This document shows positions 5,510 to 7,187 of a stretch of DNA of 64,000 bases, in pieces. The position numbers were made by a program, and so were the translations under genes. How positions within the stretch are numbered: position 1 is the first letter of the stretch; every line of letters begins with the position of its first letter. Source of the stretch: a virus; the UHGV virus genome UHGV-0171999; one strand, written 5' to 3'. A model generated the notes under the pieces. That model was not told the origin of the DNA and searched no databases. It saw nothing but the letters and a program-made list of their open reading frames with translations.

Positions 5510-5606
5510 ATATGCTTTAAGAATTATTTGTTATTATTAACTCATATCGCACTGATTAATACCCTCTATCATCAAGGGTTCTTGCTTGAGAGCCTTTGTT
5601 AATAAT

Positions 5607-5679
5607 TGGGAATTAGCCAAGTTGGTAAGGCACTGGATTTTGATTCCAGGATGCAAAGGTTCGAGTCCTTTATTCCCAG
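5607..5679 (+). tRNA. tRNA-Gln (anticodon UUG)
   Basis: Manual cloverleaf: acceptor TGGGAAT/ATTCCCA, anticodon loop TTTTGAT, T-loop TTCGAGT. Confidence 0.8.
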
Positions 5680-5680
5680 C

Positions 5681-5767
5681 GCGAGAATGGTCAAATTGGT
5701 AAAGGCACAGCACTTAAAATGCTGCGGAATGATTTCCTTGTGGGTTCGAGTCCCACTTCTCGCACCA
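5681..5767 (+). tRNA. tRNA-Leu (anticodon UAA), long variable arm, encoded CCA
   Basis: Acceptor GCGAGAA/TTCTCGC, anticodon loop CTTAAAA, long extra arm. Confidence 0.8.
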
Positions 5768-5772
5768 AATTT

Positions 5773-5846
<74 letters not shown>

Positions 5847-5856
5847 ATTTAATTTA

Positions 5857-5931
5857 CTCCGTGTAGCTCAATGGCAGAGCGATCGCCTGTTAAGCGATTG
5901 GTTATAGGTTCGAATCCTATCACGTCCGCCA
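5857..5931 (+). tRNA. tRNA-like gene, anticodon GUU (Asn-type), acceptor stem mismatched as read; possible pseudo or chimeric tRNA
   Basis: Clean D-arm, anticodon arm (loop CTGTTAA) and T-arm (GGTTCGAATCC), but 5' CTCCGTG vs 3' CACGTCC leaves top three acceptor pairs unpaired. Confidence 0.45.
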
Positions 5932-5935
5932 AATC

Positions 5936-6011
5936 CGAGGCATAGCTCAGAAGGAAGAGCAAGGACCTTCTAAGTCCTAGGTCGTAGGTTCGATCCCTAC
6001 TGCCTCGACCA
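5936..6011 (+). tRNA. tRNA-Arg (anticodon UCU), encoded CCA
   Basis: Acceptor CGAGGCA/TGCCTCG, anticodon loop CTTCTAA, T-loop TTCGATC. Confidence 0.8.
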
Positions 6012-6027: not shown

Positions 6028-6378
6028 ATGAAAGGTAATGTTTATTTAGTAGTTCATGATTTAACGTTCTATTTTAATCACAATGACACTGTTATTTCTG
6101 AACGTGTAATTAATTTGCTTTATCAGCATGCAGATTATGTTTATGTCGAAAACGAATATGGTCATTGGCAATTTCTCAAAAATCGTTCATTTGGTTTAGA
6201 TGGTTACGAATACTTTGAACGTAAAGACCTTTTAGATAAAATTCCGTTATCTACACAATATCAAAATCATAAGTCTTTATATAAATGCCGTCCAATTCGA
6301 AATGCTGAATCCGCGTATGAAGCAATTGATTTATGGCGTAAACGCCGTGAACAGATTGATTCTTTAAAAGAATATTAA
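6028..6378 (+). CDS. hypothetical protein
   Basis: 116-aa ORF with GTGAGGAAAA Shine-Dalgarno immediately after tRNA-Arg. Confidence 0.6.
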   Translation: MKGNVYLVVHDLTFYFNHNDTVISERVINLLYQHADYVYVENEYGHWQFLKNRSFGLDGYEYFERKDLLDKIPLSTQYQNHKSLYKCRPIRNAESAYEAIDLWRKRREQIDSLKEY

Positions 6379-6382
6379 GAAA

Positions 6383-6716
6383 CCGGGTCGCTACCGGTAA
6401 GTCGTCGGACTGATGTTCCCTGCGTAAGGACTGGCATTAACAAATCTTTACGATCTGTTAATGTCCCCTTACATCACAGCAGAAACGGCGCACAGAATTA
6501 TCGATTCGAGGAAATATCTTTGCCGTAAGCCGAGTAGCGTTTTTGACGGAACGTTCGGATATGGTCGAGATATGGCCTTTTAAAAATATTGAGTAGCGTC
6601 AACTGCTTAATAACCGGGTTCGAATCCCGGCGTTTCGTACAAACACTTGCCTTAGCAGGTGGAACCCCGACAAGGTTGCCGCAAGGCTTAGCCCCGACCA
6701 AAAGGTTGGGGCTTTT
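6383..6716 (+). ncRNA. candidate structured stable RNA(s), possibly like T4 species 1/2 RNAs (rnaC/rnaD)
   Basis: About 330 nt with no supported ORF, higher GC, long hairpin around 6420-6470, tRNA-like T-arm CCGGGTTCGAATCCCGG, ends in an intrinsic terminator. Confidence 0.4.
6690..6716 (+). terminator. intrinsic terminator hairpin with T-run
   Basis: GCCCCGACC-AAAA-GGTTGGGGC followed by TTTTT. Confidence 0.6.
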
Positions 6717-6850
6717 TGGTATCTAGGCCTTTCTGGACCTCTCTAGGCATCATTTAGTTTCTACCCTTTATAATATATTATCCTATCCTTTAATTGCCCC
6801 TTTCATCCCTAGAATTCCCTAAAACTTTTTAAAAAATTTTTCACAAAACT

Positions 6851-6911: not shown

Positions 6912-7187
6912 TTGGAGAATGAAATGGATAATTACGGCGAACTGTTCAACTTCTTTATGAAATGCGTTTCAGAAGATTTCGGTCGTACAGTGAATGATAT
7001 TAAAGTTATCGGTCCTGACCATCCGATGTTTGAAACTTACGCAGTAATGGGTAATGAAGATGGTCAGTGGTATACTGTAAAGGTTGTGATTAACATGTTC
7101 ACTGCTGAAGGTTATGTTAAACTGTCTTCTAAAGTTTACCATGATAACGACGAAATCGCAGAAGAATATTTCAATAATATGAAATAA
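6912..7187 (+). CDS. hypothetical protein
   Basis: 91-aa ORF after early promoter and GGAGAA Shine-Dalgarno. Confidence 0.6.
   Translation: MENEMDNYGELFNFFMKCVSEDFGRTVNDIKVIGPDHPMFETYAVMGNEDGQWYTVKVVINMFTAEGYVKLSSKVYHDNDEIAEEYFNNMK

What the first reader, a model, noticed from the sequence alone, without database searches (positions are those of the whole stretch)
6383..6716. Structured non-coding region with tRNA-like T-arm and terminator
About 330 nt after ORF 6028..6378 has no supported ORF, raised GC content, a long imperfect hairpin (about 6420-6470), a tRNA-like T-stem-loop (CCGGGTTCGAATCCCGG) and a strong terminator at 6690-6716. This is the position where T4 encodes its small stable RNAs of unknown function downstream of tRNA-Arg, so it may hold their homologs or a different structured RNA.
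Basis: partly seen in the sequence, partly recalled or inferred. Interest (0 to 1): 0.45.

Follow-up and report, generated by a model that had tools for sequence, protein, structure and literature searches.

The report
T4 stable RNA genes rnaD and rnaC
This stretch holds this T4-like phage's copies of two small stable RNAs, species 2 (rnaD) and the tRNA-like species 1 (rnaC), which were found in T4 in the 1970s and whose function is still unknown; the finding is real but already described.

Summary
Window 6375-6718 is the 3' end of the T-even tRNA operon. It holds rnaD (species 2 RNA, about 6375-6495), a 6-nt spacer, rnaC (species 1 RNA, 6502-6638), a conserved trailer (6639-6689) and the operon terminator (6690-6718).

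Over 342 nt it is 94% identical to T4, where these features are annotated. The layout (tRNA-Arg, 116-aa ORF, rnaD, rnaC) matches phage T2L. Neither RNA has an Rfam family.

Both folds are supported by compensatory changes. rnaC is tRNA-like: a 7-bp acceptor stem, a T-arm, a U discriminator and no encoded CCA. It has two non-tRNA arms whose loops (UUGACG and CGUCAA) are complementary. That 6-bp loop-loop pairing holds in all 29 distinct homologues, with double changes at two positions in two separate sets of sequences.

A covariance model built only from other genera finds 6502-6638 at 142 bits. This was its only hit at E <= 1 in the 64-kb window.

rnaD-like elements also occur in Vequintavirinae and Karamvirus, directly 3' of tRNAs. 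The papers I could read (2010, 2022, 2025) all call the function unknown. Verdict: already known, low interest as a finding.

The parts
5511..5537 (+). Context: homologue of the T4 putative promoter PM2, which lies upstream of the tRNA/stable-RNA operon
   Evidence: These bases are identical to the T4 positions annotated 'put. -35 region (PM2)' and 'put. -10 region (PM2)' in X03016.1.
6028..6378 (+). Context: 116-aa ORF inserted between tRNA-Arg (5936-6011) and rnaD. It is the homologue of the T2L 'trna.2' protein, and its function is unknown.
   Evidence: 96% identical to T2L CAI54242. It matches phrog_3355 (unknown function) and has no Pfam hit. T2L has the same layout.
6375..6495 (+). rnaD (species 2 RNA) homologue. 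It has a 5' hairpin P1 (6382-6398), P2 (6401-6407 with 6486-6493), P3 (6414-6417 with 6478-6481), P4 (6421-6422 with 6475-6476), P5 (6424-6428 with 6468-6472) and a variable distal hairpin (6433-6442 with 6456-6465).
   Evidence: Boundaries were mapped from the T4 and RB5 annotations. It is 88% identical to T4 and 99% to IME339. On 21 sequences, 92.5% of cells pair, 14 pairs show a change on both sides, and 0 of 500 shuffles reach this.
6496..6501 (+). Spacer AAUUAU between rnaD and rnaC. It would be the 5' leader removed from rnaC; RNase P cleavage at 6501/6502 is an inference.
   Evidence: The covariance-model match starts exactly at 6502.
6502..6638 (+). rnaC (species 1 RNA) homologue, a tRNA-like RNA. 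Parts: acceptor stem 6502-6508 with 6631-6637 (two U.U mismatches); arm I 6509-6578; linker 6579-6586; arm II 6587-6612; T-arm 6614-6630; discriminator U at 6638; no CCA encoded.
   Evidence: 98.7% identical to RefSeq T4 over 150 nt containing rnaC (annotation). Covariation on 29 sequences: 92.2% of cells pair, 32 pairs change on both sides, and 0 of 500 shuffles reach this. A model built only from other genera scores 141.9 bits, E = 2.6e-33, full length, and this is its only hit at E <= 1 in the window.
6543..6548 (+). Apical loop of rnaC arm I, UUGACG. Proposed partner of the loop at 6597-6602 in a 6-bp loop-loop (kissing) interaction.
   Evidence: All 6 pairs are standard in all 29 distinct sequences. 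A-U becomes G-C in 5 Marfa-like Klebsiella-phage sequences, and C-G becomes U-A in 2 Tegunavirus sequences. There are no one-sided changes. The loop is kept where the rest of arm I is replaced.
6597..6602 (+). Loop of rnaC arm II, CGUCAA, complementary to 6543-6548
   Evidence: The sequences are shown.
6639..6689 (+). Conserved 3' trailer with a hairpin (6644-6650 with 6655-6661) and the segment GGAACCCCGACAAGGUU
   Evidence: About 37 nt are almost invariant in 10 phages; the only differences are in the hairpin loop. This includes IME08-type phages, where the trailer follows rnaD directly. No covariation was seen, and its function was not established.
6690..6718 (+). Intrinsic terminator of the operon
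   Evidence: A 10-bp stem with 7 G-C pairs, a 4-nt loop and a T run. One compensatory pair, C-G to G-C. Annotated 'pot. terminator' in T4.

Best explanation
The region is the end of the tRNA operon of a Tequatrovirus and encodes two already described small stable RNAs, rnaD (species 2) and rnaC (species 1).

Shown here:
- Homology to the annotated T4, T2L and RB5 genes.
- The same gene order as T2L.
- Secondary structures for both RNAs supported by covariation.
- An intrinsic terminator at the end of the operon.

Inferred from the anatomy and from established T4 tRNA-processing knowledge:
- Both RNAs are co-transcribed with the tRNAs and the 116-aa ORF from the promoter upstream of tRNA-Gln, then cut out of the precursor.
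- The rnaC 5' end is made by RNase P at 6501/6502. It presents a 12-bp acceptor/T-arm stack with a U at position -1.
- The rnaC 3' end is trimmed back to the discriminator U at 6638, and CCA is then added. This would make 137 encoded nt into the 140-nt RNA that T2L annotates.
- The rnaD 3' end is what remains after that RNase P cut and trimming back to stem P2.

rnaC then folds as a four-way junction. Its two non-tRNA arms are tied together by a 6-bp loop-loop pairing, so it has a tRNA-like top half and no anticodon arm.

Function is not established. My best guess, at about 0.2, is that rnaC is a non-decoding tRNA mimic that occupies a tRNA-binding host or defence protein. rnaD would be an independent protein-binding module.
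For: Identity and synteny:
- 342 nt are 93.9-94.4% identical to T4 and 99.1% to IME339.
- The aligned T4 bases are annotated species 2 RNA, species 1 RNA, stem-loop and terminator.
- RefSeq T4, RB5 and T2L annotate rnaD and rnaC.
- T2L has the identical order: tRNA-Arg, a 351-nt ORF, rnaD, rnaC. The ORF product is 96% identical.

rnaC structure:
- 92-93% of cells pair; 26 pairs (19 sequences) and 32 pairs (29 sequences) show a change on both sides.
- 0 of 500 shuffles reach these values, and slid controls give 38-49%.
- The acceptor stem is a perfect 7 bp in Tegunavirus, and A3-U becomes G3-C in the other genera examined.
- A model trained without any Tequatrovirus sequence finds 6502-6638 at 141.9 bits.

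Loop-loop pairing: 6 of 6 pairs hold in 29 of 29 sequences, with double changes at two positions in two separate sets of sequences. The pseudoknot was not part of the model that made the alignment.

rnaD structure: 92.5% of cells pair, 14 pairs are compensatory, 0 of 500 shuffles reach this.

Genomic context fits tRNA-style processing:
- In six phages of other genera (Karamvirus, Gelderlandvirus, Moonvirus, the Erwinia phage), rnaC lies between two tRNAs with only a few nt of spacer; in four others it has a tRNA on one side or none adjacent.
- rnaD-like elements start 1-5 nt after a tRNA CCA end in T4, RB5, A5-4, W70 and Karamvirus.

Terminator.

Literature:
- RNAC and RNAD are detected as late RNAs in T4 infection, with a Northern blot using an RNAC probe (PMC9697503).
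- A single convergent SNP in rnaD arose in all three lines of a T4-like phage evolved on a semi-permissive host (PMC12685909).
Against: - There are no expression or end-mapping data for this phage. The RNA ends are transferred from T4 annotations, which differ among records by 1-3 nt (137, 139 or 140 nt for rnaC).
- In this window rnaD follows an ORF rather than a tRNA, so its 5'-end formation cannot be exactly as in T4.
- The RNase P, trimming and CCA-addition steps are inferred from structure and from my recollection of the 1970s-80s T4 literature, which I could not open.
- The loop-loop pairing rests on changes in only two sets of related sequences, and it could form between molecules rather than within one.
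- Nothing tested here bears directly on function. Reviews and papers from 2010, 2022 and 2025 all say it is unknown (PMC3014915, PMC9697503, PMC12685909).
Confidence: 0.93

Rival explanations
1. The region encodes small proteins (ORFs 6461-6583, 6589-6726 and 6498-6701 on the minus strand), as many GenBank records annotate it.
For: These ORFs exist mechanically. Many deposited genomes label the matching bases 'hypothetical protein', often twice.
Against: - Substitutions fall in compensating pairs across helices.
- The + strand ORF 6461-6583 runs across rnaD, the spacer and rnaC. rnaC is absent from IME08-type (Dhakavirus-like) phages, and the middle of rnaD is replaced in T2L.
- T4 RNAC from this locus was detected by Northern blot, and RNAC and RNAD were classed as late RNAs (PMC9697503).
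- Whether each ORF stays intact across phages was not tabulated.
Confidence: 0.02
2. rnaC is a genuine, if unusual, tRNA gene. The candidates are a class II tRNA or the 'tRNA-Lys(ttt)' that some records annotate on its 3' 94 nt.
For: - Phage G2133 annotates tRNA-Lys(ttt) over rnaC positions 45-138.
- Rfam tRNA-Sec gives a weak match at 6546-6638: 16.6 bits, E = 4.7.
- An alternative 7-bp acceptor (6546-6552 with 6632-6638) is perfect in this window and pairs in 85.7% of cells family-wide.
Against: - ARAGORN finds no tRNA or tmRNA here.
- Rfam tRNA does not reach 29 bits, and tRNA-Sec scores 16.6 against a gathering score of 47.
- The alternative acceptor has no compensatory change and scores below all 500 shuffles.
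- It also requires breaking arm I and the loop-loop pairing, both of which covary.
- No 7-nt anticodon loop is conserved.
Confidence: 0.03
3. The structures act only in cis, as processing and stability signals for the tRNA operon. The RNAs that accumulate would then be by-products with no function of their own.
For: - In Tequatrovirus the elements sit at the 3' end of the operon next to the terminator.
- rnaD-like elements start a few nt after a tRNA 3' end in most phages examined.
- The trailer is almost invariant without any covariation.
Against: - rnaC is at least 99% identical in 491 of 751 records, while the whole 342 nt reaches that in only 6 of 806.
- Its length stays at 136-140 nt even where arm I is replaced.
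- In other genera it sits in the middle of tRNA clusters, where a 3'-end protecting role makes no sense.
- A loop-loop tertiary contact and a tRNA-like top half are more than a processing signal needs.
- A convergent adaptive SNP in rnaD has been reported (PMC12685909).
Confidence: 0.15

Closest known systems
Bacteriophage T4 rnaC (species 1 RNA; NC_000866.4 70908-71046, X03016.1 4741-4877)
   Same: 98.7% identity over 150 nt containing rnaC. Same position after rnaD and before the operon terminator. Same acceptor stem, T-arm and arm II stem-loop.
   Different: Only a few base differences. For example, G at 6606 is A in T4, inside the arm II stem. This is a member of the family, not a variant.
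Bacteriophage T4 rnaD (species 2 RNA) and the T2L 'putative rnaD'
   Same: The 5' core (AAGUCGUCGGACUGA..UUCCCUG) and 3' core (UCACAG..GAAACGGCGCA) are identical. The 6-nt spacer to rnaC is the same.
   Different: The distal hairpin differs from T4 at several positions, mostly compensated. It is of the T4/RB5 type rather than the T2L type, although the upstream ORF is the T2L type, so the locus is a mosaic. In T4, rnaD starts 2 nt after the tRNA-Arg CCA. Here it follows an ORF stop codon.
tRNA-like domain of tmRNA, and other small RNAs matured by RNase P
   Same: An acceptor stem stacked on a T-arm with GGUUCGAAUCC, no anticodon arm, and a single-stranded 5' leader. It works like a tRNA top half.
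   Different: ARAGORN does not call a tmRNA. There is no tag reading frame and no G3.U70 pair (A3-U or G3-C instead). The discriminator is U, CCA is not encoded, and two arms joined by a loop-loop pairing replace the tmRNA pseudoknots.
Class II (long variable arm) tRNAs
   Same: Arm II sits one nucleotide before the T-arm, where a long variable arm would be. The 3' 93 nt can be drawn as a degenerate cloverleaf, and some tRNA finders call it one.
   Different: That alternative fold has no covariation support and conflicts with arm I. There is no conserved anticodon loop.

Membership tests
T4 rnaC / species 1 RNA | Sequence homology to the annotated T4 gene | tested here: met
   98.7% identity to NC_000866.4 over 150 nt. 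The aligned bases are annotated species 1 RNA / rnaC.
T4 rnaC / species 1 RNA | Position in the tRNA operon, after rnaD and before the operon terminator and e.8 | tested here: met
   The order rnaD, 6-nt spacer, rnaC, trailer, terminator is as in T4, RB5 and T2L. The downstream ORF 6924-7187 corresponds in position to the CDS annotated e.8 in T4, RB5 and T2L; it matches phrog_2678, unknown function.
T4 rnaC / species 1 RNA | Family fold: acceptor stem, arm I, arm II, T-arm | tested here: met
   A covariance model built from 11 non-Tequatrovirus homologues matches 6502-6638 end to end at 141.9 bits, E = 2.6e-33.
T4 rnaC / species 1 RNA | Accumulates as a stable RNA of about 140 nt in infected cells | not testable with these tools
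   Shown for T4 only, by a Northern blot with an RNAC probe (PMC9697503).
T4 rnaD / species 2 RNA | Sequence homology to the annotated T4 gene, including both conserved cores | tested here: met
   88% identity to T4 over 117 nt and 99% to IME339. 47 invariant columns are shared by 21 sequences.
T4 rnaD / species 2 RNA | Starts immediately 3' of tRNA-Arg | tested here: not met
   ORF 6028-6378 lies between tRNA-Arg (5936-6011) and rnaD. The annotated T2L rnaD has the same arrangement, so this is not a strict family requirement.
T4 rnaD / species 2 RNA | Conserved fold (P1-P5) | tested here: met
   92.5% of cells pair, 14 pairs change on both sides, 0 of 500 shuffles reach this, and slid controls give 31-47%. 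The minimum-energy alternative for the junction has less support.
Canonical tRNA | Cloverleaf with an anticodon arm, detected by ARAGORN or by Rfam RF00005 at 29 bits or more | tested here: not met
   No ARAGORN call in 6375-6720. No RF00005 match. The best clan member is tRNA-Sec at 16.6 bits against a gathering score of 47.
tmRNA | tRNA-like ends plus a tag reading frame, and a G3.U70 pair | tested here: not met
   ARAGORN reports no tmRNA. Pair 3-70 is A-U here and G-C elsewhere.
Intrinsic (Rho-independent) terminator | G+C-rich hairpin followed by a U run | tested here: met
   6690-6713 has 10 pairs, 7 of them G-C, followed by TTTTT. Conserved, with one compensatory pair.

The most novel reading that the evidence does not exclude
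rnaC would be a distinct class of phage tRNA mimic, conserved across at least eight genera of Tevenvirinae. A tRNA top half (acceptor stem plus T-arm, made by the tRNA-processing enzymes) is fused to two arms locked by a 6-bp loop-loop pairing. It would work as a non-decoding decoy or sponge for a tRNA-binding host factor or a tRNA-directed defence enzyme. rnaD would be a second, independent module that has also spread to Vequintavirinae and affects growth on particular hosts.
Probability: 0.2. Interest if true: 0.6.

Novelty: already known. Interest (0 to 1): 0.22.

Why it matters
As a finding it adds nothing new: these are the T4 species 1 and species 2 RNA genes, annotated in T4, T2L and several RB phages.

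What still matters is that their function has been unknown since the 1970s and neither RNA has an Rfam family. As a result, most deposited T4-like genomes either leave the region blank or annotate false proteins or a false tRNA-Lys over it.

The comparison made here gives testable material:
- A covariation-supported fold for each RNA.
- A loop-loop tertiary contact in rnaC, with double changes at two positions in two separate sets of sequences.
- The observation that the two RNAs are independent modules. rnaC occurs without rnaD inside the tRNA clusters of other genera. rnaD occurs without rnaC in IME08-type (Dhakavirus-like) phages and in Vequintavirinae.

Tried and rejected
- **Rfam.** I scanned at gathering and at permissive thresholds. 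Nothing matched either RNA except a chance-level tRNA-Sec match.
- **Alternative tRNA fold.** I tested the internal tRNA-like fold of rnaC that some genomes annotate as tRNA-Lys. It has no compensatory change and scores below every shuffle.
- **Alternative rnaD junction.** The minimum-energy pairing of the rnaD junction is less supported than the comparative one.
- **Known motifs in rnaD.** By eye I considered a hammerhead (CUGAUG...GAAA), a kink-turn, and a resemblance to the P4 region of RNase P RNA. The strand topology is wrong for a hammerhead. CUGANGA is not conserved: CUGAAGU and CUGAGAU occur, and the motif is absent in Karamvirus. No tool supported any of these.
- **Bacterial genomes.** I searched one genome for each of 185,579 species with an rnaD core pattern. 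It gave 35 hits, all chance matches that lack the 3' core ACGG.GC. rnaC was not searched in that collection.
- **Precursor pairing.** In the precursor fold, the 5' end of rnaD pairs with the 3' end of rnaC. I did not follow this up and treat it as incidental.
- **Primary literature.** I could not open the 1970s-2003 papers (Miller 2003; McClain 1972). Statements about RNase P, trimming and CCA addition for species 1 therefore rest on structure and memory, not on a source I read.
- **Full-text searches.** They found no paper assigning a function.

Full report
**What is in the window.** The window comes from a T4-like phage. ARAGORN and Rfam find a tRNA cluster at 5607-6011: Gln, Leu, Gly, a fourth tRNA seen by Rfam only, and Arg. 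ORF 6028-6378 follows, and then the flagged stretch.

- GC is 0.43-0.48 across 6300-6750, against about 0.30-0.36 on either side.
- A long hairpin lies within 6424-6471.
- CCGGGTTCGAATCCCGG lies at 6614-6630.
- A terminator hairpin with 10 pairs, 7 of them G-C, lies at 6690-6713 and is followed by TTTTT.
- Folding energies lie 3.2 to 5.1 standard deviations below dinucleotide shuffles.

**Identity.** BLAST of 6379-6720 against phage records finds 806 records. 680 of them cover at least 80% of the query. Identity is 99.1% to phage IME339 and 93.9-94.4% to T4.

In T4 record X03016.1 the aligned bases carry the features 'species 2 RNA', 'species 1 RNA', 'pot. stem-loop structure' and 'pot. terminator'. 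RB5, RefSeq T4 and T2L annotate them as rnaD and rnaC.

Mapping those annotations through a three-way alignment gives these window coordinates:

| Element | Window coordinates |
|---|---|
| rnaD | 6375-6495 |
| spacer | 6496-6501 |
| rnaC | 6502-6638 |
| T4 stem-loop | 6587-6612 |
| terminator | 6690-6713 |

**Layout.** In T4, rnaD begins two bases after the CCA end of tRNA-Arg. Here a 116-aa ORF lies between them, and its TAA stop codon (6376-6378) overlaps the first bases of rnaD.

T2L has exactly this arrangement: tRNA-Arg, a 351-nt 'trna.2' ORF, rnaD, rnaC. The two proteins are 96% identical. The protein matches phrog_3355, of unknown function, and has no Pfam hit.

The distal hairpin of rnaD, however, is of the T4/RB5 type and not the T2L type. 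The locus is therefore a mosaic.

Upstream of tRNA-Gln, the T4 putative promoter PM2 is conserved base for base at 5511-5537. According to PMC2330249, the T4 primary transcript is a common precursor of the eight tRNAs and of the species I and II RNAs, and it ends after species I.

**rnaC structure.** I collected homologues from annotated phage records, from IMG/VR and from metagenomes. They represent Tequatrovirus, Mosigvirus, Karamvirus, Moonvirus, Kanagawavirus, Gelderlandvirus, Tegunavirus and the Klebsiella Marfa-like phages. This gave 29 distinct sequences.

The fold is a four-way junction:
- a 7-bp acceptor stem (6502-6508 with 6631-6637);
- a long arm I (6509-6578);
- an 8-nt linker;
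- a 10-bp arm II (6587-6612);
- a 5-bp T-arm with loop UUCGAAU (6614-6630);
- a discriminator U (6638), followed in the genome by ACA rather than CCA.

On the 29 sequences, 92.2% of cells form standard pairs. 32 of 53 pairs show a change on both sides. None of 500 shuffles reaches the observed values, and sliding the partner columns gives 38-49% (the earlier 19-sequence count is).

The two U.U mismatches in the acceptor stem become U-A and C-G in Tegunavirus. A3-U becomes G3-C in the other genera examined.

As a test independent of this window, I built a covariance model from 11 non-Tequatrovirus sequences only. It matches 6502-6638 end to end at 141.9 bits, E = 2.6e-33. That is its only hit at E <= 1 in the 64-kb window.

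**A loop-loop contact in rnaC.** The apical loop of arm I is UUGACG (6543-6548). The loop of arm II is CGUCAA (6597-6602). They are perfectly complementary.

Across the 29 sequences all six pairs are always standard. There are no one-sided changes. Two positions change on both sides:
- A-U becomes G-C in the five Marfa-like sequences (UUGGCG with CGCCAA).
- C-G becomes U-A in the two Tegunavirus sequences (UUGAUG with CAUCAA).

The model that produced the alignment treated both loops as unpaired, so the alignment is not biased towards this pairing.

In Melville, fGh-Ecl01, PEi20, Kosakonia 305, Ursula and NM4.3, the body of arm I has a quite different sequence. The loop and the total length (136-140 nt) are still kept.

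I take this as good evidence for a tertiary kissing interaction. The caveat is that it rests on changes in two sets of related sequences and could form between molecules. None of the papers I could search describes it. I cannot exclude that the primary papers of the 1970s do.

**rnaD structure and spread.** A comparative fold is supported on 21 sequences. It has a small 5' hairpin P1 (6382-6398), a stem P2 that closes the molecule (6401-6407 with 6486-6493), helices P3 to P5, and a variable distal hairpin. 92.5% of cells pair, 14 pairs are compensatory, and 0 of 500 shuffles reach this. The minimum-energy alternative for the junction does worse.

The single-stranded junction sequences are invariant in these 21 sequences.

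rnaD-like elements are not confined to T4 relatives:
- Vequintavirinae phage A5-4 has two copies and W70 has one. Each starts just after the CCA end of tRNA-Met or tRNA-Tyr. One form lacks the long distal hairpin.
- Karamvirus has a more divergent copy after tRNA-Asn.
- IME08-type (Dhakavirus-like) phages keep rnaD but have lost rnaC, so rnaD joins the trailer directly.
- Conversely, in six phages of other genera (Karamvirus, Moonvirus, Gelderlandvirus and an Erwinia phage), rnaC sits between two tRNAs, typically tRNA-Trp or tRNA-Met and tRNA-Gly. rnaD is not next to it there.

The two RNAs are therefore separate modules. A pattern search of one genome for each of 185,579 bacterial and archaeal species found only chance matches to the rnaD core.

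**How it probably works.** Homology, fold and operon context are shown. The rest is inferred.
- rnaC presents a 12-bp acceptor/T-arm stack with a single-stranded leader ending in U. This is the minimal substrate of RNase P, so cleavage at 6501/6502 is the natural way to make its 5' end.
- Its 3' end would be trimmed to U at 6638 and extended with CCA, as for the T4 tRNAs that lack an encoded CCA. This step rests on my own knowledge of the T4 tRNA literature, which I could not read here. T2L annotates a 140-nt rnaC.
- The rnaD 5' end would come from the cut that releases the upstream tRNA or mRNA. Its 3' end would come from the RNase P cut, followed by trimming back to P2.

Function is unknown according to every source I could read:
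- PMC3014915 (2010): 'their biological roles are unknown'.
- PMC9697503 (2022): 'RNAs of yet unknown functions', classed as late RNAs, with a Northern blot using an RNAC probe.
- PMC12685909 (2025): unknown function, but one SNP in rnaD arose in all three lines of a T4-like phage evolved on a semi-permissive E. coli.

My preferred guess, at about 0.2, is a non-decoding tRNA mimic that occupies a tRNA-binding host or defence factor.

**Rivals.**
- Small proteins. The ORFs are mechanical, and two of the three span rnaC, which some phages lack.
- A real tRNA. Some records call the 3' 94 nt tRNA-Lys, and Rfam tRNA-Sec gives 16.6 bits against a gathering score of 47. The alternative acceptor needed for that fold has no compensatory change and scores below all shuffles. 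It also conflicts with arm I.
- Purely cis-acting processing signals. This cannot be excluded. It fits poorly with the extreme conservation of rnaC (at least 99% in 491 of 751 records, against 6 of 806 for the whole stretch), with its position in the middle of tRNA clusters in other genera, and with its tertiary contact.

**Verdict.** The feature is already known. Interest as a scan finding is low. The comparative structures are a modest by-product that makes an old open question easier to test.

Noticed in passing
window 5857-5932 (Rfam match 5860-5924): The fourth 'tRNA' is a chimera. Its first 7 nt (CTCCGTG) are the 5' acceptor strand of tRNA-Pro. The rest is tRNA-Asn (anticodon GUU). By eye only 4 of 7 acceptor pairs can form, and ARAGORN does not call it. 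Relative to T2L and RB5, the stretch from Pro to Tyr (Pro, Ser, the trna.1 ORF or Thr, Met, Tyr) has been deleted at a shared GTG. [quoted passage not shown]
   Followed up: partly
window 6028-6378: A 116-aa ORF of unknown function (phrog_3355, no Pfam hit) lies between tRNA-Arg and rnaD. It is 96% identical to T2L 'trna.2'. Its stop codon overlaps the first bases of rnaD, and homology to T4 begins exactly there, so the rnaD 5' boundary is a recombination junction.
   Followed up: partly
L036 604-704 and 1497-1617 (phage A5-4); L037 1493-1593 (phage W70); L010 325-430 (phage fGh-Ecl01): rnaD-like elements occur outside the T4 group. Vequintavirinae carry them directly after tRNA-Met and tRNA-Tyr. 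Karamvirus carries a divergent copy after tRNA-Asn. The short forms share the hairpin GAGUUCCCUCAACGAUAAC in place of the long distal hairpin.
   Followed up: partly
L011 1499-1702, L041, L044, L046 (IME08-type, Dhakavirus-like phages): These phages keep rnaD but lack rnaC. rnaD is joined directly to the conserved trailer and terminator.
   Followed up: partly
window 6642-6677: The trailer after rnaC (AACACUUGCCUUAGCAGGUGGAACCCCGACAAGGUU) is almost invariant in 10 phages of several genera and contains a 7-bp hairpin; the only differences are in the hairpin loop. It shows no covariation and has no known role. From memory, an RNase III processing site was described downstream of species 1 in T4, but I could not check this.
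   Followed up: partly
window 6546-6552 with 6632-6638: An alternative perfect 7-bp pairing exists between the 3' acceptor strand of rnaC and the 3' side of the arm I tip. It can form in 85.7% of cells across the family but shows no compensatory change. It may be chance, a relic of a tRNA ancestor, or a second conformation.
   Followed up: partly
L003 1507-1644 (phage Q7622), L015, L030, L032: In these Kanagawavirus-type rnaC copies the T-loop is UGCAUGC instead of UUCGAAU, while the T-stem and the rest of the fold are kept. A canonical T-loop is therefore not required everywhere.
   Followed up: no
public records matching window 6379-6720 (for example MK327928.1, MK327945.1, MZ234027.1): Most deposited T4-like genomes leave rnaC and rnaD unannotated. 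Others place 'hypothetical protein' CDSs or a 'tRNA-Lys' over them. Rfam 15 has no family for either RNA.
   Followed up: yes
window 6379-6390 with about 6625-6636: In the fold of the whole 348-nt precursor, the 5' end of rnaD (GAAACCGGG...) pairs with the 3' side of the rnaC T-arm and acceptor (CCCGGCGUUUC). Hairpin P1 of rnaD (ACCGGGUCGCUACCGGU) also resembles the rnaC T-arm sequence.
   Followed up: no
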